From the IMG/VR virus record IMGVR_UViG_3300031994_000015, positions 94,276 to 158,275 of that record: 64,000 nucleotides of DNA; one strand, given 5' to 3'. This document shows, in pieces, positions 4,997-57,266 of the stretch. Origin of the DNA: a virus (Duplodnaviria > Heunggongvirae > Uroviricota > Caudoviricetes). The notes beneath the pieces are model-generated. The model made no database searches. It was not told where the DNA came from and saw only the letters and a program-made list of their open reading frames with translations. The translations under genes and the position numbers were made by a program. The number at the start of each line of letters is the position of its first letter. The stretch's first letter is position 1.

Positions 4997-7900
4997 ATGG
5001 ATTTCTTAGATAATAGTGGACATGTTTTTTCTTTACCTTCATATTCTGAAGAGCCAATAGGTCATGAATTTGAAGAAAATGATTATATATTTTGGTTAGA
5101 CAATAATGTAACTTCTTCTTTATCGGTCAATAACTATTATAGTCGTGTTATAAACCTTGTAATACCTTATGATAGTTATGAGAATATGTCATTTGATGAA
5201 TTAGTAGATATAACTATTTCTATGGATTCACATAAATTCTGGTTATTAAAACCTACAGATATACAAAACTTAGTTAATGAGACAGATAATATTTCAAATA
5301 TTGTTCATAATATAAATGCTAAAGATAATTATAGATTCAATACATTAACTAATGATGATTTATATGTTCTAACTATTTCTAATAACTATGAGAATTCTAA
5401 TCAATGGGTTAGATCAAATATGGCTGTAGTTCCTTTATATATTTTAGGAAAAGCTAAAGAAGAAGGAACTTGGATTAGTAATATATTGATTCATATAAAA
5501 GATAAATCTGAAGATTATGAATCAGTTACAGAAGATTGGGTAAGTATTAGTGTTGGTGGAATATTTAAAGATGAAAATGAAATATTGACAATCAATGGCC
5601 AAAACATGGGTATTACATTACCTAAAGAAATGTTCAGAGCAGTATACCAACAAAGTTTCTTGAATGATGAGTTTAATGAAAATCTTTATAATTTGAAGCT
5701 TAAAGAATACCTTATTAACTTTATGAACATTAAAGGAGAACAAGGTAACTTTAGATCTGCAAATAATTCATTAAAGTGGTTTGGTTATAAAGACCATCTT
5801 GTTTTAACCAAACTTATGAAAACTGATAATGATATTAAAGAACAATATGTACATGATTGGTTTAATCTTAAGACTGATCTGATTAAATCATTTAAGTATT
5901 TTAGAAATAGTACATTTGTATCTATTAAGCTTAAAGAAAATCAAGAAATAGGAGAGAGATATTTATTTAACGAAGATAAAGAAAGCAGTTTCTTTGGTGA
6001 AGGTAAACCTATTTTAGAGAATCTTTTCAAAAAGGAAATTCCAGTTAAAGTTGGTTATGATGAAGACCAATGGACATATTGGAAGCCTTATTATGATTTT
6101 ACTTTTTATGAAATGGGTTTGAAATTATCATGTTTAAAATATTACTATGAAACATATTTCTTGCCTATTCACTTAAAAGTTCATTCGGCAACTATTGCAC
6201 ACCAAGTATTTACAAATGATATCAAGTTTGATAATAAAGTTTTCAATACAGTAAGAACTGAATCAATTATCAATACAGAAGAGACATTTGAAAATAATGG
6301 AAATAATATTGAATTTAAAAGAAATATAGTTGAGTTTGATAGCAATAATGTAAGATATTTTACTCACCAAATTCATTATGTAGATGAAAACTTTAATGAA
6401 TATAAATCTTATAATGATAAAGAAAATGGAAAAACTTTTTACAAGATAGATGATACATGTTTGAGTATACCTATTAGATTTAATAATGATGTAGATAGTA
6501 ATGGTTTAAATATACCTACATATTTTAATTGTGTATTATTGTTAGAACGTGAAGGTTTAGATAATGAAACAATCAATCAATATAGATTAAATATTCTTAA
6601 TCATCCAATTAATATTTGGTATTATGACATCAATATATTAAGTAAACAAACTAAAAAACCATTAGATTTATCTAATTATGAAATTGTATTTTCAGAAATG
6701 AATCAATTTAATAAATCTGACATCATATCTAATGGTTTAGAAGGATTGAAGACATACTTAAAAACATATTTTGCAATACCTGTTTTCTCTAAATATTATG
6801 ATTTAGATAATGAAAATTATAATTTAGAGTTTGTTTATACAGATGATGGTGAATATATTCAATTATATAGGGCTTCTTTAACTCAACAAATTTTGAATAA
6901 GTTTAAAAATTATGATTCTAATATTATAAATAATTTGTTTAATATATTAGATCAATTAAGTGTTACTAAAGAAGATGAAGCTCATAATAATTTCAAATAT
7001 TTGCATATTTCTGAAACACCTATAGAATATATTGATAAAGATTGGTACATTTATATTCCACCTATTAGTCAATTCAATTTTAATCCTATGAATACAAATG
7101 ATATTTATGGGGAAATATTTATTGTACCAAAAGTAAATATTCAATTAAAATTTGACCAAACAGAAATTCATGATTTTATAATTAAGCCAAAAACAGGTAA
7201 TTCAATATCTATTAAAGACAAAATTAGAATAAACTACATACCATTAAGTAAAGTTATGTATGAATCTCATTTTAATTTTGTACAAGATAAAACACATTTA
7301 GATAGTGTATACAATTCATTTATATTATATCCTAAATATATCAATAATCAAGATATTAATTATTTCATTAATAAGAAATTTACATTGAGATTATTAGTTA
7401 ACAATCATTGGTATAAATATGATTTTGAAACTAAAATGCCGGATGTAAACTTGAAATTTGGTACATTAAAATATAAATATTATAGCACTACAGATAATTA
7501 TTATTCAAGATTTTCTCAATTGTTAGATTTAACTTCAAATTCTGTTACATTCAATTCATTTATGTATCACCCAGAATTTGTTGAAGTTAATCATATCAAT
7601 TTTTTCAAAGACTTAGATAATTATATTAAATTGAATTCATTAAAATATTTAAGTAATGATGGAGAATTATTGAAACTTAGTAATTTTAATAGATATATAG
7701 ATTATGAATATTATGATGAAGATAATAAAGTCAAAAAAATAAAAATATATATTAGTAAATTCATTACTGATAAAAAATTCTTCATCTATTTTGATACTGA
7801 TTGGTTACAAGAAGATTATACATTGTTCAAACTTATTCCTGCTCAAATAGGTTACAATTTGTTAGCTAATCGAAATGATGATTTATGTATTTTAGGAGAA

Positions 7901-10900
7901 GAGAGATATTTTGATTTTAATAAAATGTTCTTTATAAGAAATTATGATGATAACACATTTTTAGGATCATATGTATATTTCAAAATAGATAACAATAAAT
8001 GTTATAGTAATAAAATTATAAATAAATACCATGAAATATACACAGAAGCAGGTTTAGAAACTATTGGAAATGCCGAAGATTGGTTAGAAATCATAGAAGA
8101 CTTAAGAAAATATAATATTGGATATATTAATCTAAATGGTATAAGTGGTATAAATAGAATTAAAAAGCATATATATTTACCTCTTAATTCAATTACAAAT
8201 AATGAACATATTGAAATCCAAAATATTTATGACCAAGAAATTAAATATAATATCATTCCTGAGATTAATAATTTTTATAACAGATATACTGAAAAGATAA
8301 ATATCAATAATGAAAATTATCTTAATAATATTTTAATATTCAATATATTCAAGAACAATCAAATTAATAAGAATATATTTAATAGCACAATATTTGGTAA
8401 TGTAAAATTAAGTGCAAACGGTATTATGTTTTCTCATAATGATTTAGATGAGAAAATTTATTTAAAGGGAAAAGCTTTATGGAGTGAAAATATTGATTCA
8501 AAATATTTAGATTTGTATGGTTTTTATATCAACCAAAAAGATTCTCATAGAAAATATCCTTGGAGTTGGGGTTCAAAAATAAAACCTATATTAGGAAATT
8601 TAGAAGCAATACAAATACCAGGACAATTTATATATTATCAAGATTCATTAGGAAATATAATTGGTAGTAATATTAAAATTAATTATAAAAAAGAAAATTT
8701 AGCTCAAATAATTTGTAATAATATTGAAGATTTTACCCATATTGAAGATAAGTTACCAAGTGATTATAAATGGATCAATAATAATGTTCAAAAAATTAAA
8801 TATGAAAAATTTGGAAATTCTGACAATATTACTGTAACTTATAAAACTGGTGAAATAGAAACAAATAAATTTATCTTAAATGTTAAATATATTAAGATTA
8901 ATCCATTAAATGGTCAATATTCAATATTAAATGAAATTACAAATTATGATTTATATAGAATCAATTCTTCAAACAATGATGGCAACTTAGATATTAAATT
9001 ATTATGTACTATAATTAAAATCTCTGTTGTTTATGAAGAAGTTGGTGAAGAAAAAGAAATAACATTAAATGTTTCTGATGCATATTTAAGTCGTTTAGAT
9101 ACGTCAAAAAATATAATTGATAAATTAGATATTATACCTTATGGTTTTGGAAAAATAGGTAATACCAATTATATAATTGGAAAACGATATGATGAATATT
9201 ATGCTATTGATCTAAATAAATTAAAAAATGGAAAATTTGAAGGTATAAAAATATTTTGTAAAGGAAATTCACAATATTTAGATAATAGAATTTCATCAAT
9301 AATAGAAGCTGAACAACCTGGATTATATGTATATAATTATGATTATTATAGAACAAGTACTGAAAATCTTAATTTAGATAGATTAGAATCTTCATTAGAT
9401 GTAAGTAATGATGCAGGAGAATTATTAGTAGATCGTGGTTTGGCAAGATTATACAGAGTTAATTATGATAATAATATTAAATATTTGATATTCTATGAAA
9501 GAGATATTAAATATGCATATGATTTAATGTCTCAATTCTCTGATTGTAATGCCGAAAATTGTATTATTTTAGAAGATATTTATCATGATTTTAAAACTAA
9601 ACAACATGTGAATGAAGGAAATAATAATACAAGAATATTAACAAAAATGTATGATAAATTCAATAATAAAAAATCATTATTACTTAATAAAATTATATAT
9701 AGCAAAACAAATACTGATTTAAATAAAATAGATTTCAATATTTTAGATTCTAAATTTATTAGTCTTAATGATGACGATATAGTTTATGTTATATATCAAT
9801 ATCAAAATCAAGAAGATTTAAATCCAATAATTTATAAATCATACACAAAAATTGAATTAGAAGATGGAGAAAATACAATTAAAGGTATAGTAAATAACTT
9901 AAATACAACACAAAATGGCATTTATAAATATGTTATAACTAATAAATTTAATTATATTAAAAATTACATTTATACATTAACTTGGGAGACTAATATTTAT
10001 GGAGCATCAATAAATTTATTTATTTTGAAAGAAAATTCTTATGAAATTCTTAAATATAAAGATAGTGAATTTTTGATGACTGATGATATAAAATCTATAC
10101 AAATGAGTTTTGTTGTCGAAAATAATGTACAAAATACTTTTATAGATGGATATATTATACCTAAAATATTCTCAAGTAAATTAACAAATAGTTATTCACA
10201 ATTAAAATATATTCCATCATCAGATTCTAATAAATTCATAGAAATCAATATTGATGGTAATAAATATGTTTATGATGATAATACCGATGATGATAAAGTA
10301 AAATTATATAATGATTTCTTTGAAATAGATTATCTTGCTACAAAAAGAGATGAAAATGGAAGAATAAGTGAAGAAAATACTGGTACTGTATATGAGATAG
10401 AAAAATTATTTAATATTGAAAAAAATTATTTGAAATGGTCAAATAACAATCAATTTACTTGTCGAAAAATTATATCTAATACAGATTTGCATAATAACAC
10501 TATTTTAATTACTAATGGTGATGTTTATTATGAATATACACAAGTTAATGATAAAGATATTTTAGCATATTTTGATAGTTTGTCAGAATTTAATAAATAT
10601 AATTTGGTTAATTTGATTAAGTATGATTTCAGTATTAAAACATACATAGATTTTTATGATTGTCATGTTTATAAATATATAATAGATAGTACTCCTATTA
10701 ATGAAGATAATGATTGTATAATTACTGAAAACTTAGAAGAGATTAAATTACCTGATTATTTTGTAGAAGAGAATTATGTAAAAGTAATCAAACAAAAAAT
10801 CAATTTAAAGAAATTCTTTGATTATGACTTCTATTTAATGCATGACTATGATTATTGGTATGGTGTATTTATATCTAAAGAAGTTATATCTAAGAACATT

Positions 10901-11344
10901 AATAATAGTAACTTAAAGATTTCTAAAGATTATAAAGTAATAGAATCTACAATATATCAAGAAAATGATTTCTACGAAAACAACACACCATATGTATTAA
11001 AATTAGTTGGATCTAGTAATGAATTCTTGATTAACCGTATGATGTTTGAAGAAACTAATGGAGTTAACCATTTTGATAATGATAAAATGATAGTGGCTAA
11101 ATTGGAAAACAATAATAAGCTACCTGTCGATATATTTAATTCACCTAAATGGGAAATAACTCCAAAATCAATAGGAATGGATAAAACATTAAAAATCAAT
11201 TCTAATCAAAATATGGCTTTAATATCATTCCCAGAAAATAATAATGTTTATCAAAAAGGTTATTATGATGTCAAAGTAAGATATTCATTAGATAAGAATA
11301 TTCAACACCAATTGCATAAAGATGGAATTATACGTATTGGATAA
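4997..11344 (+). CDS. giant 2115-aa protein, Asn/Ile/Lys/Tyr-rich; function unknown (possibly a large virion or tail-associated protein)
   Basis: Uninterrupted 6.3-kb ORF with no credible competing ORF; no catalytic motif recognised (no DxDGD). Confidence 0.85.
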   Translation: MDFLDNSGHVFSLPSYSEEPIGHEFEENDYIFWLDNNVTSSLSVNNYYSRVINLVIPYDSYENMSFDELVDITISMDSHKFWLLKPTDIQNLVNETDNISNIVHNINAKDNYRFNTLTNDDLYVLTISNNYENSNQWVRSNMAVVPLYILGKAKEEGTWISNILIHIKDKSEDYESVTEDWVSISVGGIFKDENEILTINGQNMGITLPKEMFRAVYQQSFLNDEFNENLYNLKLKEYLINFMNIKGEQGNFRSANNSLKWFGYKDHLVLTKLMKTDNDIKEQYVHDWFNLKTDLIKSFKYFRNSTFVSIKLKENQEIGERYLFNEDKESSFFGEGKPILENLFKKEIPVKVGYDEDQWTYWKPYYDFTFYEMGLKLSCLKYYYETYFLPIHLKVHSATIAHQVFTNDIKFDNKVFNTVRTESIINTEETFENNGNNIEFKRNIVEFDSNNVRYFTHQIHYVDENFNEYKSYNDKENGKTFYKIDDTCLSIPIRFNNDVDSNGLNIPTYFNCVLLLEREGLDNETINQYRLNILNHPINIWYYDINILSKQTKKPLDLSNYEIVFSEMNQFNKSDIISNGLEGLKTYLKTYFAIPVFSKYYDLDNENYNLEFVYTDDGEYIQLYRASLTQQILNKFKNYDSNIINNLFNILDQLSVTKEDEAHNNFKYLHISETPIEYIDKDWYIYIPPISQFNFNPMNTNDIYGEIFIVPKVNIQLKFDQTEIHDFIIKPKTGNSISIKDKIRINYIPLSKVMYESHFNFVQDKTHLDSVYNSFILYPKYINNQDINYFINKKFTLRLLVNNHWYKYDFETKMPDVNLKFGTLKYKYYSTTDNYYSRFSQLLDLTSNSVTFNSFMYHPEFVEVNHINFFKDLDNYIKLNSLKYLSNDGELLKLSNFNRYIDYEYYDEDNKVKKIKIYISKFITDKKFFIYFDTDWLQEDYTLFKLIPAQIGYNLLANRNDDLCILGEERYFDFNKMFFIRNYDDNTFLGSYVYFKIDNNKCYSNKIINKYHEIYTEAGLETIGNAEDWLEIIEDLRKYNIGYINLNGISGINRIKKHIYLPLNSITNNEHIEIQNIYDQEIKYNIIPEINNFYNRYTEKININNENYLNNILIFNIFKNNQINKNIFNSTIFGNVKLSANGIMFSHNDLDEKIYLKGKALWSENIDSKYLDLYGFYINQKDSHRKYPWSWGSKIKPILGNLEAIQIPGQFIYYQDSLGNIIGSNIKINYKKENLAQIICNNIEDFTHIEDKLPSDYKWINNNVQKIKYEKFGNSDNITVTYKTGEIETNKFILNVKYIKINPLNGQYSILNEITNYDLYRINSSNNDGNLDIKLLCTIIKISVVYEEVGEEKEITLNVSDAYLSRLDTSKNIIDKLDIIPYGFGKIGNTNYIIGKRYDEYYAIDLNKLKNGKFEGIKIFCKGNSQYLDNRISSIIEAEQPGLYVYNYDYYRTSTENLNLDRLESSLDVSNDAGELLVDRGLARLYRVNYDNNIKYLIFYERDIKYAYDLMSQFSDCNAENCIILEDIYHDFKTKQHVNEGNNNTRILTKMYDKFNNKKSLLLNKIIYSKTNTDLNKIDFNILDSKFISLNDDDIVYVIYQYQNQEDLNPIIYKSYTKIELEDGENTIKGIVNNLNTTQNGIYKYVITNKFNYIKNYIYTLTWETNIYGASINLFILKENSYEILKYKDSEFLMTDDIKSIQMSFVVENNVQNTFIDGYIIPKIFSSKLTNSYSQLKYIPSSDSNKFIEINIDGNKYVYDDNTDDDKVKLYNDFFEIDYLATKRDENGRISEENTGTVYEIEKLFNIEKNYLKWSNNNQFTCRKIISNTDLHNNTILITNGDVYYEYTQVNDKDILAYFDSLSEFNKYNLVNLIKYDFSIKTYIDFYDCHVYKYIIDSTPINEDNDCIITENLEEIKLPDYFVEENYVKVIKQKINLKKFFDYDFYLMHDYDYWYGVFISKEVISKNINNSNLKISKDYKVIESTIYQENDFYENNTPYVLKLVGSSNEFLINRMMFEETNGVNHFDNDKMIVAKLENNNKLPVDIFNSPKWEITPKSIGMDKTLKINSNQNMALISFPENNNVYQKGYYDVKVRYSLDKNIQHQLHKDGIIRIG

Positions 11345-12707: not shown

Positions 12708-12949
12708 TGAATGTATTAGAAATTGGTAAAACTGCAGGAGTCAATCCTATGTTTCAGGCAATGTATGCCTTTGGAACAATTGATAGTTGGCTTGAAAAAA
12801 TGGATGAATATTTTGCAAATCCTATGCGATATAGTTCAATTATCAATAAGCTTGGACAATGTGGAATTGATAAAGAACTTATTGACTCCATGCATGTAGC
12901 TAAAGATTTTATGAACAAAATTGTTGAAGCCACTAAGACAAATAAATAA
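12698..12949 (+). CDS. hypothetical protein
   Basis: 83-aa ORF. Confidence 0.4.
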   Translation: MEVMNVLEIGKTAGVNPMFQAMYAFGTIDSWLEKMDEYFANPMRYSSIINKLGQCGIDKELIDSMHVAKDFMNKIVEATKTNK

Positions 12950-13461
12950 TGAGAAAATTGATTTTTACAATGCTCTTATTGAGCACATTTAATACATTTG
13001 CATATAATATTTCAACTTCTGGTAAACAGTTTATAAAAGATCAAGAGACTTGTGTTTTGACAGCATATTGGGATTCGAATGGGTATTCAATTGGTTGGGG
13101 ACATCATGGTTCAGATGTGAAAAAGAACATGAAAATCTCTAAAGCCCAAGCGAATAAGTATTTTAATAAAGATATTAAAGAGATTGAAGCGGCTGCAAAT
13201 CGTCTTATCAACAATCTTCCTTACAAGTATAAGTTTTCACAAGGATTTTTTGATGGTCTTTGTTCATTAGTATATAATACCGGTGAAGGTGGAGTACAAA
13301 AGTCTGAGTTCTATCAACGGTTGAAACGATGCCGAGTAAAGAATGGAAAAATGAATCAAAATGATTTGAACTATTCTATCGCTGGTGTAAAGACATCTCG
13401 AATTTCTTGTAAAGGACATATTTCTCGTAGATATGATGAACATAAGTTAATGCTTAACTAA
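12949..13461 (+). CDS. lysozyme (glycoside hydrolase family 24, T4 e-like) with N-terminal signal peptide
   Basis: Hydrophobic N-terminus MRKLIFTMLLLSTFNTFA, then QETCVLTAYWDSNGYSIGWGH matching the GH24 E...D...T(A/S)Y.D..G..TIG.GH signature. Confidence 0.7.
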   Translation: MRKLIFTMLLLSTFNTFAYNISTSGKQFIKDQETCVLTAYWDSNGYSIGWGHHGSDVKKNMKISKAQANKYFNKDIKEIEAAANRLINNLPYKYKFSQGFFDGLCSLVYNTGEGGVQKSEFYQRLKRCRVKNGKMNQNDLNYSIAGVKTSRISCKGHISRRYDEHKLMLN

Positions 13462-13658: not shown

Positions 13659-14027
13659 ATGAAAAATTGGATTAGTAGACATTGGTTTGGTATTACAATG
13701 ACAATTGGGATTTCAATTATACCACTATTCATAATTAGTGAATTAATATACTATAATTGTGAGGAAGATAGTAAAGTATATGTTGAATGGACAGTATATG
13801 ATGGCTATACTCCAAGAAATTATTCTGGTACTTATGAAATGAAAGGCTCAGAATTTGAAGTACAAAACTATTGGCAATCGGCCGGCAAATATAGAGGTTC
13901 ATATAGAGTTGTACGTATTGTTGATAAGAATGCTGGTGGCTCTTATATTAATAGACAATCAGTATGTATTTATACAGGAATGAATGATGTTGAAGTAACT
14001 AAAATTAAAGTTTTAGAAACAAAGTAA
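13659..14027 (+). CDS. small membrane protein (one TM helix: WFGITMTIGISIIPLFIISELIYY); possible holin or lysis accessory protein
   Basis: Start moved to the internal ATG at 13659, immediately after the stop of the upstream gene; lies downstream of the lysozyme. Confidence 0.4.
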   Translation: MKNWISRHWFGITMTIGISIIPLFIISELIYYNCEEDSKVYVEWTVYDGYTPRNYSGTYEMKGSEFEVQNYWQSAGKYRGSYRVVRIVDKNAGGSYINRQSVCIYTGMNDVEVTKIKVLETK

Positions 14028-32738: not shown

Positions 32739-34823
32739 ATGACTGGAACAATTTTAACATTGTGTTTGATTGGTGGAGGAATCCTATTCCTCGTTCTAAC
32801 AATTTGGGGAATTCTATCAAGGTATCGCCGTTCAGCACCTGATGAACTTTTGGTTGTTTTTGGTAAATCTGGAAAGATCCAAGTACAAGGTGAAGATGGT
32901 AAGACACAAACATTGGTAGTACCAAGTAAGATTATTCAAGGTGGTGGTGCATTTGTATGGCCTATCATTCAGGACTTCAAGAAGATGTCAATGAAGCCTA
33001 TTCAGATTAAGGCGACAGTTGACGGTATTGATTCACAAGCAATTCAATTGCACTTGCCTGTAGTATTAACAACTGCAATTTCTCGAGATAAAGAAATTCA
33101 ACAGAATGCAGCAACTCGTTTCTTGAGTGCTAATCCACAAGAAATTCAATCTCAGATTCAAGAAATTTTGATTGGTGAAACACGTGCTATCATGGCAACT
33201 ATGTTGATTGAGGAAATTAACGCCGACCGTGATAAGTTCTTAACTAAGGTACGTACTAACCTTGAGCAAGAGTTGACAAAGATTGGTTATGATGTTACTA
33301 ACATTAACATTTCAGAAATTACCGATGACGCCAACTATATCAAGAACATGGGTCAAAAAGCTACAACCCGTAAGCAAGCTGAAGCTGAGGCAGATATTGC
33401 TGAGCAGAGGAAGCAAGGTAATGTAAAGATTGCTAACACAAAGAAGGAAGAGGAAATTGCTGTTGCTGCAGCTGAGAAGGAGAAGCAAGTTACAGTTAAT
33501 CAAACTCGTCAGGAGCAAGAAGTTAAGGTAGCAGGTATTGAAAGAGACAAGCAAATTCAATTGGCTGAAGCTGAAAAGGAACGTGAATCTGGTATTGCCG
33601 ACCAGGAAGCTGAGAAGGCAGCACGTATTGCCGAAGCTCAAGCACTTGCTGAATCTAAGAAAGCTGAAGCTAAAGCAAAGCAGATTGCTAATGTATCTGC
33701 AGCTGATGCAGAAGCAGCATCTAAGCAAGCTGAAGCTGATGCTAAGAAGGTAGCTGCAGTTGCTGCTCGTAAGGCAGAAGCTGAATCTAATAAAGCTAAG
33801 TCAGAAGCTGAACAGACTAAGGCAATTGCTACTGCACAAGCTGATGCAGAAGCTACTGAGAATGAGCAGGAAGCTAAGAAGCAAACTCGTATTGCACAAG
33901 CTAACCAGGTTAAGGAAGCTGAAATTGTAAAAGCAACTCAGGAAAAGGAATCTAAAGCCGCTGAGTATGAATCTGAGAAACGTAAGCGTAAAGCAGAAGC
34001 TGATAAGAAGGCAGGTGTTGCCGAACAGATGGCAAAGATTGAAGTAGCACAAGCTACTGCTAAGGCTGGTCAAGCTGAAGCTGATGCTAAGAAGGTAAAG
34101 GAAACTGCTATGGTTGAAGCCGAGATGTCAGTTGCAAAAACTAAGCAGGAACGTCAGTTAGAAGTTAATAAGGCACAAGCTAAAGCCGCTGAGGAGCAAT
34201 TGAATGCTACCGAAATCGTACCAGCACAGAAAGCTAAGGAGAAGGCAGTTATTGAGGCCGAAGCTATTAAGCGTAAAGCCGAACTTGAGGCAGAAGCGTT
34301 GAAGGTAAAGATCCTTCGTGAAGCTGAAGCTGAAGCTCAGAAGACCCAAATGAAGTTGGAAGCTGAAGCTGAAGGTAATCGTAAGAAGTTGCTTGCCGAA
34401 GCTGAAGGTGCAGAAGCTATGGCACTTGCTAAAGCTAAAGGTATTCAACAGGAAGCACTTGCACCAGCTATGGCATTTGAAAGAATGATTCAAGCTGCTG
34501 GTTCACCAGAGATGGCAGTTCAGTGGAAGATGGTTGATCAGTACAAAGGTATCGCTGAAGCTCAAGCTCATGTTCTTGAACACGTACAACTTGGTAATGT
34601 TACTGTTTACGGTGATAAGAACACAGGTGCTGACTTCGCTAAGAGCTTTGTTCAGAACTTCGCTCCAGCTCTCGATATGATCAATGGTGGAGTAAAGGAT
34701 CAGTTTAAGAATCTTTTCGGATTGAAAGGTGAAAAGAAAGAACTCCCATCACCAGAAGGAACCGGAGATGACACCAAAACCAAAGGTAAGGACAAGGGAG
34801 GAGACTTTGATGATGTTAAGTAA
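32739..34823 (+). CDS. flotillin-like SPFH/Band-7 protein with a long Glu/Ala-rich coiled coil
   Basis: N-terminal TM, SPFH core (LLVVFGKSGKIQVQGEDGK...IQGGGAFVWPIIQDFKKMSMKPIQI), then ~400 aa of AEAEA-type flotillin repeats; GC-rich codons. Confidence 0.75.
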   Translation: MTGTILTLCLIGGGILFLVLTIWGILSRYRRSAPDELLVVFGKSGKIQVQGEDGKTQTLVVPSKIIQGGGAFVWPIIQDFKKMSMKPIQIKATVDGIDSQAIQLHLPVVLTTAISRDKEIQQNAATRFLSANPQEIQSQIQEILIGETRAIMATMLIEEINADRDKFLTKVRTNLEQELTKIGYDVTNINISEITDDANYIKNMGQKATTRKQAEAEADIAEQRKQGNVKIANTKKEEEIAVAAAEKEKQVTVNQTRQEQEVKVAGIERDKQIQLAEAEKERESGIADQEAEKAARIAEAQALAESKKAEAKAKQIANVSAADAEAASKQAEADAKKVAAVAARKAEAESNKAKSEAEQTKAIATAQADAEATENEQEAKKQTRIAQANQVKEAEIVKATQEKESKAAEYESEKRKRKAEADKKAGVAEQMAKIEVAQATAKAGQAEADAKKVKETAMVEAEMSVAKTKQERQLEVNKAQAKAAEEQLNATEIVPAQKAKEKAVIEAEAIKRKAELEAEALKVKILREAEAEAQKTQMKLEAEAEGNRKKLLAEAEGAEAMALAKAKGIQQEALAPAMAFERMIQAAGSPEMAVQWKMVDQYKGIAEAQAHVLEHVQLGNVTVYGDKNTGADFAKSFVQNFAPALDMINGGVKDQFKNLFGLKGEKKELPSPEGTGDDTKTKGKDKGGDFDDVK

Positions 34824-35618: not shown

Positions 35619-36953
35619 ATGAATATATCTATTGTTGGTACTGGTTATGTTGGCTTAGTAACTGGTACTTGTTTTGCCGAAATGGGACATAATGTACATT
35701 GTATAGATATCAATAAAGAAAAGATTTATAAATTAAATAATGGTATTATACCTATTTATGAGCCAGGATTAGAAGAATTAGTAAAAAAGAATATACAAGC
35801 TGAAAAATTATTTTTTGATGATGATTATAAATCTATAGAATATGCAGATGCTGTATTTTCAGCTGTTGGTACTCCACCGGATGAAGATGGTTCAGCTGAT
35901 TTACAATATGTATTAGCTGTAGCAAAAGAGTTTGCTAAGTATATTAAGAAACATTCTTTAATTATTACTAAATCAACAGTACCAGTTGGAACAGCAGAAA
36001 AGGTTCGTAAAGTTGTACAAGATACATTGAAAGAATTGAATAAAGAAGTAGAGTTTGAAGTTGTTTCAAACCCAGAATTTTTGAAAGAAGGTTCAGCTAT
36101 TGAAGACTTTATGAATCCTGATAGAATAGTTATAGGTTGCGATATGGAATATTCTAAGATGATTATGCAATCTATTTATAAAAAATTCCCAGACGAAAAA
36201 TTAGTATTTACAACTATTCCATCAGCTGAAATGATAAAATATGCTGCTAATTCTATGTTAGCTGTTCGTATTTCATTTATGAATGATATCGCTAATCTTT
36301 GTGATAAAGTTGGTGCTAATGTAGAAGATGTAGCTAAAGGTATAGGTATGGATTCTCGTATAGGACCAAAATTCTTACAAGCTGGTTGTGGATATGGTGG
36401 TTCATGTTTTCCTAAAGATGTAAAAGCACTTATTAAAACTGGAGAGCAAAATAATATAGATATGAAAGTTATTAAAGCAGCTGAAGCTACTAATAATTCA
36501 CAAAAACATATCCTTTATGATAAATTATATAAAGCATCTTCAAGAGTTGATTATCAAATAAAGAATATTACAATATTGGGTACTGCATTTAAACCTAATA
36601 CCGATGATATGAGAGAAGCTACTTCAGTTGTATGTTTAAATGATTTATTGAATGATAATCAAAAATTAGGACCATTTGATAAGATTAAGATATATGATCC
36701 AATAGCATTAGGTGAAGCTAAAAGAATAATAGGTGAATCAAATGAGAAGATTGAATATTATAATGAATTAGATAAAGCTATTATAGATGCAGATGCAATA
36801 ATTATTGTTACTGAATGGAAACAAATTAAAGAAATGTCTTTAGAGGTTGCAAAAAAATTAATGAGAGGTAACATAATTATAGATGGAAGAAATATATTTA
36901 ATAGAAAAGAATTAGAGAAATTAGAATTTATATATGAAGCTATAGGAAAATAA
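35619..36953 (+). CDS. ugd: UDP-glucose 6-dehydrogenase family (UDP-glucose/GDP-mannose dehydrogenase)
   Basis: N-terminal GTGYVGLVTGTCFAEMGH Rossmann motif and catalytic GCGYGGSCFPKD motif. Confidence 0.85.
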   Translation: MNISIVGTGYVGLVTGTCFAEMGHNVHCIDINKEKIYKLNNGIIPIYEPGLEELVKKNIQAEKLFFDDDYKSIEYADAVFSAVGTPPDEDGSADLQYVLAVAKEFAKYIKKHSLIITKSTVPVGTAEKVRKVVQDTLKELNKEVEFEVVSNPEFLKEGSAIEDFMNPDRIVIGCDMEYSKMIMQSIYKKFPDEKLVFTTIPSAEMIKYAANSMLAVRISFMNDIANLCDKVGANVEDVAKGIGMDSRIGPKFLQAGCGYGGSCFPKDVKALIKTGEQNNIDMKVIKAAEATNNSQKHILYDKLYKASSRVDYQIKNITILGTAFKPNTDDMREATSVVCLNDLLNDNQKLGPFDKIKIYDPIALGEAKRIIGESNEKIEYYNELDKAIIDADAIIIVTEWKQIKEMSLEVAKKLMRGNIIIDGRNIFNRKELEKLEFIYEAIGK

Positions 36954-47681: not shown

Positions 47682-48578
47682 CTATGAATTATATTTATTT
47701 AATTGTATTTCTTTAAATTCTTTAATCTGAGTATAATATTCTTTGAATAACTTAATTTTTTCTGGTGTTTTATTATTATACACAAAATAATGTTGACCGG
47801 TATATCTTGGTTCATAATTATTTACTTTTCTATCACATCTACCTCTTAAAGATTTATATTTAATATATTCTTCGGTAGATTTAGTTACATAATGACTTAA
47901 ATATGCTGTTTGATAATATTCTTTATTTATAAAAATTTGAGTATAATAACTATCACCTTTACCTTCCCTTATCTTTTTTGTAAAATTAAAATTACCTAAT
48001 ACATCACATACTTTAATTTTATATCCTTCTTGAAAATTTCCTAATTCTGGTTCATGTATACTATATAATTGAATAACTTCATTTAAATGCCCACGAATAA
48101 AGTATTTAATCCCATTAAAATAACTGAATTTAGTTGGTTTAGTAAATCTTTCTTTTACTGGTTTAGGTTCATAATGTATTTTTCCAGAATCTCCATAATT
48201 TTTCCAACAAAACAAAATAGAATCTGTATTTTGAAATATAGATTGATTTAGAAAATCTTTGATATTTGTTTGTTTCTTTATTTCTACAAACTCATCTATA
48301 TCTATAAAACCTATCCAATCAAATTCTTCTTTTCTATTTTGATATATTTCTGCATAAAAAGTTTGTTGATATCCTAATTTATCATTTAAATTAACAAGTT
48401 CTACATATCCACTATCTATATAACTTTGAATAATTGGTTGTAATGGTATTTCATAATTACTATCATTATTATCTCCAATAATTATATGATCTACTCCAAT
48501 TTTTTTATGCCATTCAATCCATTCTTGAATATATAGTTCTTCCATTTTAGCAATGGCACAAATCCATATTTTATTCAT
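47682..48578 (-). CDS. glycosyltransferase, GT92-like (paralog B)
   Basis: CAIAKMEELYIQEWIEWHKKIGVDHIIIGDNNDS...FIDIDEF pattern; paralogous to 54864..55760. Confidence 0.5.
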   Translation of the reverse strand: MNKIWICAIAKMEELYIQEWIEWHKKIGVDHIIIGDNNDSNYEIPLQPIIQSYIDSGYVELVNLNDKLGYQQTFYAEIYQNRKEEFDWIGFIDIDEFVEIKKQTNIKDFLNQSIFQNTDSILFCWKNYGDSGKIHYEPKPVKERFTKPTKFSYFNGIKYFIRGHLNEVIQLYSIHEPELGNFQEGYKIKVCDVLGNFNFTKKIREGKGDSYYTQIFINKEYYQTAYLSHYVTKSTEEYIKYKSLRGRCDRKVNNYEPRYTGQHYFVYNNKTPEKIKLFKEYYTQIKEFKEIQLNKYNS

Positions 48579-52913: not shown

Positions 52914-52915
52914 AA

Positions 52916-53533
52916 TTAAATTCTACCATTACTCCATAATTTAAACAATCCCCAAGGAGTAAATCTTTCCCAACTATTCTGTATTTCGTCTAATTCTTGT
53001 TCTTCTCTTTTTATTTCTGATTCCCTTATACTTCTTTTAACATTATGTAGTATATTATGATCCATTAGAAAGTTTTGTCTTATCCTTTCTTCATTTAACC
53101 AATGATTATGTTCTTGCTGATATAAGTTTTGCTCTTCATATAAATGAACACATAATTTAGAATCGGATTCTATAATAAAATAATCAAAATTAACAGTACA
53201 AAAAGATTCATCACTATCATAAGAAGTAAGCATTCCTACTTTTAATTCTAATGATTTTTTCTTTCTATATGTATTTTTATTTTCTTTAACTAATTCATAT
53301 AATATATAATTAGCCAAATTTCTTTTACAAAAACATTGTCTACCATCTATAGAATTATATAAAGCATCTTTATAAAACATTTCATTCAATTCATATTCAT
53401 TATTATTATTTTGCCCTATATAAAAATCTATTATACATGTTTGTCCAAATTCAGTACGAATATTTAATTTATCAATTTCAAAATAATGCCCATTTTTTTC
53501 ATTTAACAATAAGAATGGCCCTTGAAAATACAT
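52916..53533 (-). CDS. hypothetical protein
   Basis: 205-aa ORF. Confidence 0.5.
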   Translation of the reverse strand: MYFQGPFLLLNEKNGHYFEIDKLNIRTEFGQTCIIDFYIGQNNNNEYELNEMFYKDALYNSIDGRQCFCKRNLANYILYELVKENKNTYRKKKSLELKVGMLTSYDSDESFCTVNFDYFIIESDSKLCVHLYEEQNLYQQEHNHWLNEERIRQNFLMDHNILHNVKRSIRESEIKREEQELDEIQNSWERFTPWGLFKLWSNGRI

Positions 53534-53589
53534 ACTATTTTAACATATTTTTATATAAAATAGAAAAGAGTTGAATTTGTATTCAACTC

Positions 53590-54000
53590 TTAAAATAACT
53601 CTAATTGAGTATTTTCATATTTATATGTGTATAATTGTTTATGTCCTGGTGAATTATTCCAAACATAAAGTCTTTTAAAATATGCTTTACATAAATCCAT
53701 TGAATGTTTAGTTCCTTGTGATTTACCATCCCATATTGCAATACAAATATCACAATTTTTTATTATATCTTCATTACGTTTGAATCCAGCACTTTTACCA
53801 TATCTTGCCCAATTAGGTTTAAAAACTATAATTGGTATTCCATATTTATCTGCAAAATCAGCCCCATTACTATCTACTCCTATCGCACCACCAGAAACTA
53901 TTGTCACATCTTTATATGGAAGCTCTAATTGTTTCCATATATCTTCTAATAATTCTAAATCATTAATATTTCTTGATCCAACTATTGCAATCCTTTGCAT
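53590..54000 (-). CDS. SLOG-family (DprA/LOG-like Rossmann, DUF2493-type) protein
   Basis: IAIVGSRN...VSGGAIGVDSNGADFA...RNEDII...DICIAIWDGKSQGTKH matches the SLOG GG..G.D...A...RN...AfWDG.S.GT pattern. Confidence 0.5.
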   Translation of the reverse strand: MQRIAIVGSRNINDLELLEDIWKQLELPYKDVTIVSGGAIGVDSNGADFADKYGIPIIVFKPNWARYGKSAGFKRNEDIIKNCDICIAIWDGKSQGTKHSMDLCKAYFKRLYVWNNSPGHKQLYTYKYENTQLELF

Positions 54001-54275
54001 TCCTTTAATTCTCTTTCTATTTCATTATAAAACACATCTATAAATTCACCATAAGTGATATCAGACTTAATTAATAATTCATCATTAACTAATATTTTAC
54101 ATTTTCTTTCTATTTCTGATAACACTTCATACCAATCTAGTGGATCATGTAATAATTCTTTAACCATTATAAGATTTTCACCATTATTAACTTTAGAACT
54201 AAAAAATGTCTTTTCTAAACCAGATTGTTCTATAATTATATCATCAATTACTTTTTTTAATGTTTCCCTTTTCAT
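53982..54275 (-). CDS. hypothetical acidic protein
   Basis: 97-aa ORF. Confidence 0.4.
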   Translation of the reverse strand: MKRETLKKVIDDIIIEQSGLEKTFFSSKVNNGENLIMVKELLHDPLDWYEVLSEIERKCKILVNDELLIKSDITYGEFIDVFYNEIERELKECKGLQ

Positions 54276-54879
54276 ATAATTCGATAGCTTTATTAAAAGA
54301 TATTTTTTGTTTTAATTTATCTTCTACTCTAACATAACCGGAGTTGTCGTTGTAGAACAATAATGAGTAGATGCATTTCTTTGTTTTAAGGTTGTATACC
54401 AATTTGAAACAATTTCTTGGAATAAGATGATTATTAAGATCATAATCACAACCACCACAAATGATAAGTAAAGAGTCTTGTCGACTAAATTTCCTAATTT
54501 CCCCTTCATATTTTTTCCAAATTCCTCTATTAAGTTTTATAGTTTGAGGTATACAATTTATATAGTAAAATGTTGATTTCAATTTTTGTTTATTATTAGC
54601 AAAATCTTCAGCAGGAACTAAATGACCTCTATCATATCCAGATCTTATATAATTAAAATGTGGTAAATTGTTAAATGATTTGAATTGTAAATTAGTTCTC
54701 GATTCATTTCCACCACCTTGATATAACTTATAAATTACAAATGAAGAAGTTTGTATAGAAGAAGCATAATAACATTTATAATATTGCATGTCAATTATTT
54801 TATCATATTTCTCTATATTTTGAGAAAAACATAATATACAAACAAAAAATAATATTATAGTTATTATTTTCTTTCCCAT
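54244..54879 (-). CDS. secreted non-specific DNA/RNA endonuclease (NucA or Serratia nuclease family) with signal peptide
   Basis: N-terminal MGKKIITIILFFVCILCFSQN signal peptide, and YDRGHLVPAEDF matching the DRGH His-Me finger active-site motif. Confidence 0.65.
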   Translation of the reverse strand: MGKKIITIILFFVCILCFSQNIEKYDKIIDMQYYKCYYASSIQTSSFVIYKLYQGGGNESRTNLQFKSFNNLPHFNYIRSGYDRGHLVPAEDFANNKQKLKSTFYYINCIPQTIKLNRGIWKKYEGEIRKFSRQDSLLIICGGCDYDLNNHLIPRNCFKLVYNLKTKKCIYSLLFYNDNSGYVRVEDKLKQKISFNKAIELYEKGNIKKSN

Positions 54880-55760
54880 AATTTTTTTAATACTTGATTT
54901 TTTAAATATGTTTTAATTTGTTTCTTTTCATCTACTGATAAATTTATATTATTAGTAGGATTTTTAATTATTTTGTCATAACAACATATAATCTTGTTGA
55001 CAGATTGTATCTTATAAAAATATTTTTCTTTAGGTCCAGTAGCTCTACCTCTAAATATTTTTTCAACATATTCATCAAACGATTTATAAAAATAATGTAC
55101 TAATGTCACAGCACCAGGATCTATAATTCTCTCAGAACCGTGGATAACTGATGTTTGAACATTAATAATTTGGTAATTATCTCCTAATTTAATAATTGGT
55201 TTATATAATTCTTTATAAATTGGATAATGTAAAGATACTCTTTCAATATTATTTGAATATCTAAATATTGATTTTACCCCTGTAGAATAAGCACCATTAT
55301 GAATTTTATGAACAGTTTTAGTATAAAGTTCTTTATATGGAAGATTTACTTTATGATATAATGGAAAATTTTCAGAAATTCTATATTCCCATTTAACAAA
55401 AATATTATCAGTATCTTTAAATTCTTTTTGATTTAAGAATTCTTCAATATTTGAAAACTTATTTTTCAAATCTAAAAATTCATCACAATCAAAAACACAA
55501 TACCAATCATAATTATCTTTTTCTTGAAAATAAATGTTAGTATAAAATTTATGTTGAATATCTTCTATACCTTGATAATTGTAATATTGTACTTTACCAC
55601 TATCAATATATGGTTTTAATACTTTATATTGAACATTATTACCTACATCATTATTATCTCCAAAAAAGATTGTAGTTATTCCTAAATCTATATAATGATC
55701 TATAAATTCTAATAAATGTTCTTCTTCATTTTTTCCTACACATAATAATGCTATTTTCAT
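54864..55760 (-). CDS. glycosyltransferase, GT92-like (paralog A)
   Basis: CVGKNEEEHLLEFIDHYIDLGITTIFFGDNND...VFDCDEF; paralogous to 47682..48578. Confidence 0.5.
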   Translation of the reverse strand: MKIALLCVGKNEEEHLLEFIDHYIDLGITTIFFGDNNDVGNNVQYKVLKPYIDSGKVQYYNYQGIEDIQHKFYTNIYFQEKDNYDWYCVFDCDEFLDLKNKFSNIEEFLNQKEFKDTDNIFVKWEYRISENFPLYHKVNLPYKELYTKTVHKIHNGAYSTGVKSIFRYSNNIERVSLHYPIYKELYKPIIKLGDNYQIINVQTSVIHGSERIIDPGAVTLVHYFYKSFDEYVEKIFRGRATGPKEKYFYKIQSVNKIICCYDKIIKNPTNNINLSVDEKKQIKTYLKNQVLKKLWERK

Positions 55761-55975
55761 ATATGTAAATTTCTATAACCTAAATCCATCAATTCGAAAT
55801 TATAACGAAATATTTTACGCGTAGGACACATGTGATTGTAATCATAATATTCCATATACATTGGGCAGTAACCAGTATCTTTATGCCTCCACATACAATT
55901 ATAACACATAGGAAGCTCTCTATTAAGTCCTATGTCGGATTTAGGTTTTAATATTATTTTTTTCTTTTTTGCCAT
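55757..55975 (-). CDS. small Cys/His-rich protein (possible zinc-binding)
   Basis: CYNC...H...YC...HMC within 72 aa. Confidence 0.4.
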   Translation of the reverse strand: MAKKKKIILKPKSDIGLNRELPMCYNCMWRHKDTGYCPMYMEYYDYNHMCPTRKIFRYNFELMDLGYRNLHI

Positions 55976-56036
55976 TTTTTAAAAATAAAAATGCATAAAC
56001 AAATGTTTATGCATTTTCATCAAAAATAATAAATCT

Positions 56037-56558
56037 TTAAGCTTTTTCTGTATCTTCTACTTTACCAATTGGTGTATTCTTTTGAATTTTATCAATCAAA
56101 ACATTATGTTTTGAAGCTACATCATAAACTTTTTCAGTAGTCTTTACATAAGCTTCACGAATTGGTTCAAAATACTTATTGATAGCAACTACAGCTGCCC
56201 ATTCATCATAACCACTAAATGTAGCTTCTCCTAAAGCACGAAGAGTTCCATCAAGCATTGGGTAGGTAACCTTACCAGGATTTTTCTTTTCATCCCAAAA
56301 ATCATACATTGATACCATTCCAAGAGTAAATTGCCATTGAACTGTTTTCTTATCAAGAATTGTATGAATAGCTTTAGCTACAACAGCATAATTTTCTTTA
56401 GGTAAATCAAATTCAGTTTCACTTACTTCTTTATCAATTCCTTCTGCCTCTTTAATTACTTCTTGTTCAAGCGCTTGTAATTCTTCTAATGTTTTTCCTT
56501 CAAGTGAAGCTTCAAATTCTTTTAATTGTTTTTGCTTTTCTTGTGGATCTATTACCAT
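56037..56558 (-). CDS. hypothetical acidic coiled-coil protein
   Basis: 173-aa ORF. Confidence 0.5.
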   Translation of the reverse strand: MVIDPQEKQKQLKEFEASLEGKTLEELQALEQEVIKEAEGIDKEVSETEFDLPKENYAVVAKAIHTILDKKTVQWQFTLGMVSMYDFWDEKKNPGKVTYPMLDGTLRALGEATFSGYDEWAAVVAINKYFEPIREAYVKTTEKVYDVASKHNVLIDKIQKNTPIGKVEDTEKA

Positions 56559-56591
56559 AATAAATTAAAAATATATTTTTAACTTTGTCCA

Positions 56592-57113
56592 TTAAAGAAC
56601 AAATATAAATAAACATAGAACTATTAATGCATAAAATACAATATGTCCTAAAACTTTTTTCCAATATTTAGCAAATAATTTTCTTGAAACAATATCAAAA
56701 ATCAATAAATAATTATCTGCATTTGCAGGACCAACATGCTTAAATTCTAAATCAATATAATCATAAAGTTTTTCGATTTTAAATAATTCAGCAATCAACA
56801 TTAATTGTTTATGGGCCCAATATTGTACTTGGTCATTATTATTTGTATTTTCACCATCTAATACAATAACCATGTTATTTATATTGATTTTTCCATTTAT
56901 ATCTATTAAAGGATTAATAACTCCATATAATCTTCCTAACCAATCTGAATCTACATCTATATTCAAATATTTCTTCAAGACTTTTTTAAAAGCATCTGAA
57001 TAAAAAGTATCACTAACATAATGATAGTCTTTTATATATCGATATGTGTAATAAATTGCTTGGGATAATTTATATGTTAATGTTTGTTCAAATATTTTCT
57101 TGAATATGTTCAT
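56592..57113 (-). CDS. hypothetical protein with C-terminal TM helix
   Basis: 173-aa ORF; first gene of the minus-strand block. Confidence 0.5.
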   Translation of the reverse strand: MNIFKKIFEQTLTYKLSQAIYYTYRYIKDYHYVSDTFYSDAFKKVLKKYLNIDVDSDWLGRLYGVINPLIDINGKININNMVIVLDGENTNNNDQVQYWAHKQLMLIAELFKIEKLYDYIDLEFKHVGPANADNYLLIFDIVSRKLFAKYWKKVLGHIVFYALIVLCLFIFVL

Positions 57114-57258
57114 AGAAAAAATTAAATATTATTTTTAATAAATGCTTAAATATTTTTTAAAAAATAGTTCATTAAAATTGAATTTTTTCAATTATATACT
57201 ATATTTTTATTGAATAATATATAAAAAATAGAAGGCATAGATAATAAATATTAAAAAA

Positions 57259-57266
57259 TTAAATTT
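57259..57266 (+). promoter_or_regulatory. TAAATTTG element (Bacteroidota-type -7 TAnnTTTG) just upstream of the sigma-factor gene
   Basis: Read directly; a similar TAGTTTTG lies at 3168-3175 in the other divergent region. Confidence 0.25.

What the first reader, a model, noticed from the sequence alone, without database searches (positions are those of the whole stretch)
54244..54879. Sec-exported DRGH-motif non-specific nuclease encoded by the phage
The DRGH-motif nuclease carries a clear cleavable signal peptide, so it is targeted outside the cytoplasm. Possible roles are degrading extracellular or biofilm DNA, producing nucleotides for salvage, or attacking competitor DNA, rather than host-chromosome degradation. 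An exported nuclease is an uncommon thing for a phage to carry.
Basis: partly seen in the sequence, partly recalled or inferred. Interest (0 to 1): 0.5.

Follow-up and report, generated by a model that had tools for sequence, protein, structure and literature searches.

The report
Phage-encoded exported non-specific nuclease
A very large phage that probably infects Bacteroidota carries an intact Serratia/NucA/EndoG-type DNA/RNA nuclease with a cleavable export signal, so the enzyme should work outside the cytoplasm; this is a well-supported annotation of a kind already known in phages, not a new system.

Summary
The ORF at 54244..54879 (minus strand, 211 aa) is real. It is a full-length Endonuclease_NS protein (Pfam E=2e-26). 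DRGH is at residues 83-86. His86, Asn117 and Glu125 are invariant in 113 homologues. The AlphaFold model is confident (pLDDT 93) and matches EXOG, NucA, EndoG and Serratia nuclease.

The first 19 residues behave as a cleavable Sec/signal-peptidase-I signal. In 111 homologues the presequence drifts in sequence (28% identity, against 58% for the mature part) but keeps its properties:
- positive charge at the start
- a hydrophobic core
- A/S/G/C at -1 in 109 of 111
- Gln at +1 in 111 of 111, the Bacteroidetes "Q-rule"

There is no lipobox and no T9SS C-terminal domain, so the periplasm is the inferred destination.

The window is from a low-GC jumbo myovirus related to Bacteroidota jumbo phages. 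Close homologues sit on phage contigs of up to 425 kb.

The nuclease is not unusual in kind. Seven of eight other phage NS nucleases I sampled also carry signal peptides, and a Campylobacter prophage homologue is an experimentally shown extracellular DNase.

The biological role is inferred, not shown. The candidates are destroying foreign DNA in the periplasm, clearing DNA at lysis, or salvaging nucleotides.

The parts
54244..54879 (-). Gene for the nuclease precursor (211 aa; predicted mature form 192 aa, 22.7 kDa, pI 9.4)
   Evidence: ORF; Pfam PF01223 E=2.2e-26; AF2 pLDDT 93; Foldseek hits to EXOG/NucA/EndoG/Serratia nuclease, TM about 0.67; mass and pI
54823..54879 (-). Signal peptide, residues 1-19 (MGKKIITIILFFVCILCFS); predicted SPI cleavage between S19 and Q20
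   Evidence: Heuristic. Family statistics: -1 is A/S/G/C in 109/111, +1 is Q in 111/111, presequence identity 28% against 58% for the mature part. The model shows a separate N-terminal helix (residues 2-16) of lower confidence
54505..54633 (-). Catalytic beta-beta-alpha-metal core: D83-R84-G85-H86 (54622-54633), N108, N117 (54529-54531), R118, W121, E125 (54505-54507)
   Evidence: H86, N108, N117, R118, W121, E125, D83 and R61 are invariant in 113 sequences. They align to the DRGH...N...E of Drosophila EndoG and EXOG. The N-to-E spacing of 8 equals that of Serratia N119/E127 (established knowledge)
54864..55760 (-). Upstream GT2/GT92-like glycosyltransferase gene; overlaps the nuclease start by 16 nt (same transcription unit)
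53982..54275 (-). Downstream 97-aa acidic (pI 4.7) helical ORF overlapping the nuclease stop by 32 nt. Weakly ACP-like. It is a possible but unsupported cytoplasmic partner or inhibitor
   Evidence: It is conserved near the nuclease only in the two closest relatives that have it (L124, L126) and is absent from the other nuclease loci. The single-sequence model was unreliable
53590..54000 (-). SLOG/YAcAr (DprA-like) gene, last gene of the apparent unit; also adjacent to the nuclease in relatives L126 and L100
53566..53591 (-). Terminator-like hairpin (11-bp stem followed by a T-run) closing the GT-nuclease-orf97-SLOG unit
   Evidence: 3 found in the region against 0.8 expected

Best explanation
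The gene encodes a Mg2+-dependent, sugar-non-specific His-Me-finger endonuclease of the Serratia/NucA/EndoG family. It is made as a precursor with a Sec signal peptide. The host Sec translocon exports it. Signal peptidase I cleaves it after Ser19, exposing Gln20, which in Bacteroidota would be cyclised to pyroglutamate. The 22.7 kDa basic enzyme then accumulates in the periplasm of the infected cell. Export is itself the self-protection device: it keeps a promiscuous nuclease away from the replicating phage genome without a dedicated inhibitor. In the periplasm the enzyme would destroy any unprotected nucleic acid that gets there, such as DNA from excluded superinfecting phages or transforming DNA. 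When the cell lyses, the enzyme is released with the virions and digests host DNA/RNA and matrix eDNA, while packaged phage DNA is protected. Shown here: family membership, an intact active site, the fold, conservation of the signal peptide, and phage origin. Inferred: actual export and cleavage, and periplasmic residence. Speculative: which substrate matters to the phage.
For: Family, active site and fold. Signal peptide: the N-terminus is the only SP-like one among 73 ORFs. Across 111 homologues the presequence diverges in sequence but keeps charge, hydrophobicity, a small residue at -1 and an invariant Gln at +1. The same pattern appears in every jumbo-phage and Bacteroidota homologue for which one search returned a correctly started ORF. 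NS nucleases from phages of Proteobacteria and Campylobacter have signal peptides but no Gln. So the Gln tracks the host phylum, as the Q-rule predicts (PMC5837995), and phages of P. gingivalis show the same rule (PMC10367356). No lipobox. No extra C-terminal domain: the model ends in two short helices. No conserved inhibitor gene: orf97 is absent from the 35 viral loci. Cys141, Cys144 and Cys157 are at least 96% conserved, which fits an oxidising compartment. Functional precedent: the CJIE4 prophage homologue Cje1441 (27% identity) has a signal peptide, degrades exogenous DNA and biofilm eDNA, and blocks transformation (PMC4372405; PMC12378983). The nearest solved relative, Anabaena NucA, is an exported nuclease (its export is established knowledge).
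Against: No dedicated signal-peptide predictor was available and there is no experiment, so cleavage and localisation are inferred. Gln20 could in principle be conserved for enzyme structure rather than processing. How substrate DNA reaches the periplasm is unclear, because phage DNA normally crosses the envelope inside a channel. The gene sits with helicase, methyltransferase and SLOG genes, not with the lysis genes; that placement is neutral to slightly against a lysis-linked role. In relatives the nuclease recurs next to nucleotide-metabolism genes, which hints at salvage instead.
Confidence: 0.6

Rival explanations
1. Nucleotide/phosphate-scavenging auxiliary gene. The exported nuclease breaks down extracellular or periplasmic nucleic acid to feed the very large dNTP demand of a jumbo phage, together with host nucleotidases and transporters.
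For: Homologues are concentrated in very large phages: RaK2 346 kb, XaC1 349 kb, Phosso 469 kb, LR756504 636 kb, and IMG/VR contigs up to 425 kb. In relatives the gene lies beside thymidylate synthase and a HAD hydrolase or ribonucleotide reductase. The window also encodes a dNMP kinase. Secreted nucleases reclaiming eDNA are known in bacteria (PMC11458576).
Against: A periplasmic enzyme cannot reach polymeric eDNA outside the outer membrane. No exported nucleotidase or phosphatase, and no transporter, was seen in the window. Jumbo phages carry many accessory genes anyway, so the enrichment is weak evidence.
Confidence: 0.17
2. The N-terminus is an uncleaved signal anchor, or is not used, and the nuclease acts on the cytoplasmic side to degrade the host chromosome.
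For: Phages commonly degrade host DNA. No signal-peptide predictor or experiment was available here.
Against: The hydrophobic core is only 14 residues. Positions -3 and -1 obey the cleavage rule in 109/111 homologues and +1 is Gln in 111/111. A typical positively charged start followed by a hydrophobic core would place the catalytic domain outside the cytoplasm even if it were not cleaved. No immunity gene is conserved that would protect phage DNA.
Confidence: 0.05
3. It travels beyond the periplasm during infection, as a lipoprotein, a T9SS cargo or an outer-membrane-vesicle passenger, and acts as a truly secreted DNase.
For: Bacteroidota shed many vesicles. The Campylobacter homologue's activity is found in spent medium (PMC4372405).
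Against: A classical lipobox is present in only 2 of 111 presequences, and the two Cys in this presequence are not conserved (17 and 19 of 113). There is no C-terminal domain: the protein ends about 30 residues after the nuclease core in two short helices, and Pfam finds nothing else.
Confidence: 0.08
4. Nuclease plus cytoplasmic antidote pair. The acidic 97-aa ORF that overlaps the 3' end of the nuclease gene neutralises any enzyme that folds before export, as NuiA does for NucA.
For: A 32-nt overlap suggests translational coupling. The ORF is acidic, pI 4.7, against pI 9.4 for the nuclease. It has homologues next to or near the nuclease in L124 and L126. The NucA/NuiA precedent exists (PDB 2o3b).
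Against: It is absent within 6 kb of the nuclease in the 35 IMG/VR loci and in L082, L122 and L125, even with a profile search. It shows no similarity to NuiA or any solved inhibitor. Its only signals are weak ACP-like hits, far below the NCBIfam cut-offs where a cut-off exists. The model is unreliable, pLDDT 48.
Confidence: 0.08

Closest known systems
Anabaena sp. PCC 7120 NucA (PDB 1zm8, 2o3b), Serratia marcescens nuclease (1smn/1qae) and mitochondrial EndoG/EXOG: the Endonuclease_NS (PF01223) His-Me finger family
   Same: Same Pfam family, DRGH motif, catalytic His, Mg-binding Asn and conserved Glu. Same fold: Foldseek probability 1.0, TM about 0.65-0.68. The profile E-value to NucA is 1.2e-16. 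NucA and Serratia nuclease are likewise made with signal peptides (established knowledge).
   Different: Only 16-22% identity to the solved structures. It is shorter: 192 aa mature, against about 240. No NuiA-like inhibitor gene was found. It is encoded by a phage, and its signal peptide follows the Bacteroidota Q-rule.
Campylobacter jejuni prophage CJIE4 NucA/Cje1441 (and CJIE2 Cje0566): prophage-encoded exported DNA/RNA non-specific endonucleases
   Same: Homologous: 27% identity over 60% of the query. Phage-borne, similar size (220 aa), with an N-terminal signal peptide. Experimentally it degrades exogenous DNA and eDNA and blocks natural transformation (PMC4372405; PMC12378983).
   Different: That phage is temperate and expresses the nuclease from a lysogen in a naturally competent Campylobacterota host. 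Here the carrier is a jumbo myovirus of a probable Bacteroidota host, whose lifestyle and competence are unknown.
Signal-peptide-bearing NS nucleases of cultured jumbo phages: Klebsiella RaK2/K64-1/Muenster ('periplasmic DNA/RNA non-specific endonuclease'), Xanthomonas XaC1, Yersinia GN1/YerA41, Sinorhizobium Phosso, Flavobacterium immuto
   Same: Same family, about 190-250 aa, carried by jumbo or large myoviruses, and each with an N-terminal signal peptide. The Flavobacterium phage version also has Gln at +1.
   Different: 27-36% identity. None has a published function that I could find (one search found no paper). Genomic neighbours differ.
Streptococcus pyogenes prophage DNases (Spd1, Sda1)
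   Same: Prophage-encoded, secreted beta-beta-alpha-metal non-specific nucleases (PMC3258162).
   Different: They belong to a different branch. This protein scores below threshold on Endonuclea_NS_2 (PF13930): 20 bits against a cut-off of 27. They come from a Gram-positive host and act as virulence factors against neutrophil traps.

Membership tests
Endonuclease_NS (PF01223; Serratia/NucA/EndoG non-specific nucleases) | Profile match above the curated threshold | tested here: met
   93.4 bits against a cut-off of 23, E=2.2e-26, residues 25-168
Endonuclease_NS (PF01223; Serratia/NucA/EndoG non-specific nucleases) | DRGH motif with the general-base His | tested here: met
   D83-R84-G85-H86, read directly at 54622-54633. 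D83 and H86 are invariant in 113 homologues. The motif aligns to the DRGH of Drosophila EndoG
Endonuclease_NS (PF01223; Serratia/NucA/EndoG non-specific nucleases) | Mg2+-ligand Asn and the conserved Glu eight residues later (Serratia N119/E127), plus the upstream Arg (R57) | tested here: met
   N117, E125 and R61 are invariant; the N-to-E spacing of 8 is as in Serratia (numbering from established knowledge)
Endonuclease_NS (PF01223; Serratia/NucA/EndoG non-specific nucleases) | Beta-beta-alpha-metal finger on a central sheet | tested here: met
   AF2 pLDDT 93, pTM 0.86. Foldseek top 50 hits are all EXOG, NucA, EndoG, CPS-6 or Serratia nuclease, E down to 5e-11
Endonuclease_NS (PF01223; Serratia/NucA/EndoG non-specific nucleases) | Mg2+-dependent cleavage of DNA and RNA | not testable with these tools
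   Needs an enzyme assay
Sec / signal peptidase I substrate (Bacteroidota Q-rule type) | Positively charged n-region, h-region of about 7-15 hydrophobic residues, small residues at -3/-1 | tested here: met
   MGKK + IITIILFFVCILCF + C(-3)F S(-1). In the family, -1 is A/S/G/C in 109/111, the net charge of the first 8 residues is at least +1 in 110/111, and the median length is 19
Sec / signal peptidase I substrate (Bacteroidota Q-rule type) | Gln immediately after the cleavage site | tested here: met
   Q20 in 111/111 homologues. It is absent from homologues in phages of non-Bacteroidota hosts. The rule is described in PMC5837995
Sec / signal peptidase I substrate (Bacteroidota Q-rule type) | Call by a dedicated predictor (SignalP/LipoP) | not tested
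   No such tool was available; my own heuristic was used instead
Sec / signal peptidase I substrate (Bacteroidota Q-rule type) | Actual translocation, cleavage and pyroglutamate formation | not testable with these tools
   Needs fractionation and N-terminal mass spectrometry
Bacterial lipoprotein (signal peptidase II substrate) | Lipobox [LVI][ASTVI][GAS]C at the end of the h-region | tested here: not met
   FFVC and CILC do not fit the lipobox. These Cys are conserved in only 17 and 19 of 113 sequences, and only 2 of 111 presequences have a lipobox
Type IX secretion cargo | C-terminal beta-sandwich sorting domain of about 80-100 aa | tested here: not met
   The protein ends about 30 residues after the nuclease core in two short helices, and there is no further Pfam hit
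NucA/NuiA-type nuclease-inhibitor pair | Linked gene for a specific intracellular inhibitor | tested here: inconclusive
   No neighbour matches NuiA or any solved inhibitor. The overlapping acidic orf97 is conserved only in the closest relatives. Binding could not be tested

The most novel reading that the evidence does not exclude
Signal-peptide-bearing non-specific nucleases may be a recurrent and so far unstudied trait of jumbo phages of Gram-negative hosts from several phyla. They might act as a phage-installed periplasmic guard that destroys DNA of superinfecting phages, taking the role that host endonuclease I plays in T-even superinfection breakdown, or as a nucleotide-harvesting device. 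In this lineage the enzyme might be paired with a serine-less ACP-like acidic protein as a cytoplasmic antidote.
Probability: 0.12. Interest if true: 0.55.

Novelty: new member of a known kind. Interest (0 to 1): 0.3.

Why it matters
As an annotation it is ordinary. It does give three small, useful things.

1. The invariant Gln after the cleavage site is an independent marker that this uncultured jumbo phage, and a large family of related huge phages, infect Bacteroidota and are adapted to that phylum's Sec/SPI/glutaminyl-cyclase pathway.

2. Exported NS nucleases turn out to be the rule rather than the exception among phage members of this family. They are concentrated in very large phages, yet no function has been tested for any lytic phage.

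3. The enzyme is compact (192 aa mature), probably disulfide-stabilised, and a broad nuclease, so it may be of biotechnological interest.

Tried and rejected
- **DNA search of the region.** Megablast of 50000-58000 against cultured phages found no match, so the phage has no close sequenced relative.
- **Lipoprotein reading.** Rejected: no lipobox.
- **T9SS cargo.** Rejected: no C-terminal domain.
- **Defence-system models (PADLOC).** No hit for the nuclease.
- **NCBIfam.** No hit for the nuclease.
- **orf97 as a conserved inhibitor.**
  - tblastn and a local HMM over 3,517 ORFs from all fetched loci found it only in the same phage and in L124 and L126.
  - The PDB sequence search gave only noise.
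  - The single-sequence AlphaFold model had pLDDT 48, too poor for a fold search.
  - I ran no further search on it.
- **Sigma-70 promoter scan.** Uninformative: 63 sites found against 60 expected. It is also inappropriate for Bacteroidota.
- **Disulfide pairing.** Could not be checked, because model coordinates are not exposed to scripts.
- **Literature.** Searches for jumbo-phage periplasmic nucleases and for T4 superinfection breakdown by endonuclease I found nothing directly usable. The T4 precedent is cited from my own knowledge only.

Full report
**1. The observation**

The minus strand of 54244..54879 carries a 211-aa ORF that starts at the first possible start codon and ends in TGA.

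- It overlaps the upstream glycosyltransferase gene by 16 nt.
- It overlaps a downstream 97-aa ORF by 32 nt.
- That ORF overlaps a SLOG/YAcAr gene, which is followed by a terminator-like hairpin at 53591..53566.
- The nuclease therefore sits inside a tightly packed unit.

The motif D83-R84-G85-H86 can be read directly at 54622-54633.

**2. What the protein is**

Sequence evidence places it in the non-specific endonuclease family.

- Pfam assigns it to Endonuclease_NS: 93 bits against a cut-off of 23, E=2e-26.
- PHROGs assigns it to a 'nuclease' family.
- PDB sequence searches retrieve EndoG, EXOG, Anabaena NucA and Serratia nuclease. A family profile puts NucA first, at E=1.2e-16.

The active site is intact.

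- In an alignment of 113 homologues the invariant residues include R61, D83, H86, N108, N117, R118, W121 and E125.
- These correspond to the Arg, general-base His, Mg-ligand Asn and Glu of Serratia nuclease. The Asn-to-Glu spacing is the same. The Serratia numbering is from established knowledge.

The fold agrees. An AlphaFold2 model built on that alignment is confident (pLDDT 93, pTM 0.86). Its 50 best Foldseek matches in the PDB are all members of this family, with TM about 0.65-0.68.

**3. The signal peptide**

No dedicated predictor was available, so I used a heuristic and comparative analysis.

- The N-terminus MGKK-IITIILFFVCILCF-S|QN has charge +2, a 14-residue hydrophobic core, Cys at -3 and Ser at -1.
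- It was the only N-terminus among 73 ATG ORFs of at least 80 aa in the window to pass a simple signal-peptide filter. The phage lysozyme at 12949..13461 was a near miss.

The family statistics are more persuasive.

| Feature in 111 full-length homologues | Value |
|---|---|
| Median presequence length | 19 aa |
| Net charge at least +1 in the first 8 residues | 110 of 111 |
| Acidic residues in the presequence | 3 of 111 |
| A/S/G/C at -1 | 109 of 111 |
| Residue at -3 | always S/I/C/L/V/A/T/G |
| Gln at +1 | 111 of 111 |
| Pairwise identity, presequence vs mature part | 28% vs 58% |
| Classical lipobox | 2 of 111 |

Conserved properties with drifting sequence are what a cleaved targeting peptide looks like.

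The invariant Gln matches the Bacteroidetes Q-rule.

- The Q-value, the fraction of SPI substrates with Gln at +1, averaged 71% across Bacteroidetes species.
- It was above 48% in 332 of 334 Bacteroidetes species. It was typically below 20% in Chlamydiae and Spirochaetes and below 9% in most Chlorobi; a few other non-Bacteroidetes species also have high values (PMC5837995).
- Phage proteins of P. gingivalis follow the rule too (PMC10367356).
- As an internal control, homologues from phages of Klebsiella, Xanthomonas, Yersinia, Campylobacter and Sinorhizobium have signal peptides but no Gln at +1. The Flavobacterium phage homologue and the homologue in the 636-kb uncultured phage LR756504 do have it.

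The cysteines in this presequence are not conserved. The protein has no C-terminal sorting domain. The periplasm is therefore the default destination. This is an inference.

Cys141, Cys144 and Cys157 are at least 96% conserved, which fits an oxidising compartment. I could not test disulfide pairing.

**4. Whose gene it is**

The window is a phage.

- GC content is about 27%.
- It encodes a major capsid protein, prohead protease, tail sheath, head-closure protein, helicase and Dam-like methyltransferase.
- The capsid protein is closest to an uncultured 462-kb phage, Sphingomonas PAU, Tenacibaculum and Chryseobacterium jumbo phages, and Prevotella Lak megaphages.

The nuclease family is mostly phage-borne.

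- The identical nuclease is on 12 contigs of up to 158 kb.
- A 54%-identical homologue lies on a 392-kb contig, about 3 kb from a terminase gene and about 7.5 kb from a portal gene.
- IMG/VR holds 35 loci at 35-56% identity, on contigs up to 425 kb.
- In species-representative bacterial genomes the best matches are at most 43% identical, and nearly all are Bacteroidota.
- At least some of those are truly chromosomal. One example is a Ferruginibacter copy in an island with a serine recombinase and an integrase. They have the same signal-peptide-plus-Gln architecture.

**5. How unusual it is**

By frequency it is rare: 32 of 50,697 cultured phage records match. By kind it is not.

- Seven of the eight phage NS nucleases I extracted carry N-terminal signal peptides.
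- Some are already annotated 'periplasmic DNA/RNA non-specific endonuclease'.
- The Campylobacter CJIE4 prophage homologue Cje1441 has a signal peptide, degrades exogenous and biofilm DNA, and with its paralogues abolishes natural transformation (PMC4372405; PMC12378983).
- Streptococcal prophage DNases are a further precedent (PMC3258162).

**6. Mechanism**

Shown:
- an intact non-specific nuclease
- a conserved SPI-type signal
- phage origin

Inferred:
- export to the periplasm and cleavage at 19|20
- compartmentalisation as the means of sparing the replicating phage genome

The compartmentalisation inference rests on the lack of a conserved inhibitor gene next to the nuclease across phage loci.

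Speculative: the substrate that matters to the phage. My preferred reading has two parts.
- During infection the enzyme clears unprotected nucleic acid in the envelope compartment. That would include DNA of excluded superinfecting phages. The analogy is degradation of excluded T-even DNA by host periplasmic endonuclease I, which I cite from my own knowledge, not from a tool.
- After lysis it clears nucleic acid in the surroundings.

A salvage role is the main rival. It is favoured by the concentration of the family in very large phages and by neighbouring nucleotide-metabolism genes in relatives. It is weakened by the outer-membrane barrier to polymeric DNA.

**7. The downstream 97-aa ORF**

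- It is acidic (pI 4.7) and predicted to be four-helical.
- It is weakly ACP-like, lacks the pantetheine-attachment Ser, and overlaps the nuclease gene.
- An antidote role like that of NuiA is conceivable.
- However, it co-occurs with the nuclease only in the nearest relatives, and nothing else supports the idea.

**8. Verdict**

The feature is a new member of a known kind, an exported phage-encoded NS nuclease. It also serves as a clean marker of Bacteroidota host adaptation. Interest is modest.

Noticed in passing
window 12949..13461 (+): A 170-aa phage lysozyme (PF00959, E=4e-21) with an N-terminal signal-like segment, MRKLIFTMLLLSTFNTFA|YN. It is probably a Sec-dependent (signal-peptide or SAR) endolysin. 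The next ORF (13659..14027) has a transmembrane segment and could be a holin or spanin.
   Followed up: partly
window 53982..54275 (-): A 97-aa acidic ORF overlapping the nuclease stop by 32 nt. It gives weak ACP-like hits (PHROG 5934 E=1e-3; NCBIfam ACP models E about 0.02-0.08), but Pro replaces the phosphopantetheine-attachment Ser (HDPLDW). Homologues are in L124 (72% identity, same position) and L126 (58% identity, upstream of the SLOG gene and the nuclease).
   Followed up: partly
window 24901..26898, 35619..36953, 47682..48578, 54864..55760: A set of sugar-nucleotide and glycosylation genes in a jumbo phage: a cytidylyltransferase-domain protein, UDP-glucose dehydrogenase, and two GT2/GT92-like glycosyltransferases. 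They might modify DNA or the cell surface.
   Followed up: no
window 53590..54000 (-): A SLOG/YAcAr (DprA-like) protein with weak similarity to the defence proteins ShosA and PsyrA (PADLOC E=7e-7 and 2.5e-5). It recurs next to the nuclease in relatives L126 and L100.
   Followed up: partly
window 32739..34823 (+): A 694-aa protein with an N-terminal transmembrane segment and an SPFH/Band-7 domain (PF01145, E=3e-21). This is unusual membrane-scaffold cargo for a phage.
   Followed up: no
L003 5971..6609 (Ferruginibacter MAG, 936-kb contig): The chromosomal bacterial homologue of the nuclease sits in an apparent mobile or defence island. It is directly followed by a serine recombinase gene. A tyrosine integrase and large helicase/PLD-like genes lie nearby.
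   Followed up: partly
L107 (IMGVR_UViG_GVMAG-S-ERX555913-37_000001, 8.2 kb): One homologue (40% identity) with a Bacteroidota-type signal peptide and Gln at +1 lies on a contig labelled as a giant-virus MAG. The contig is probably a misbinned phage fragment.
   Followed up: no
window 4997..11344 (+): A 2,115-aa ORF in the lowest-GC part of the window (20-25% GC). It was not characterised.
   Followed up: no
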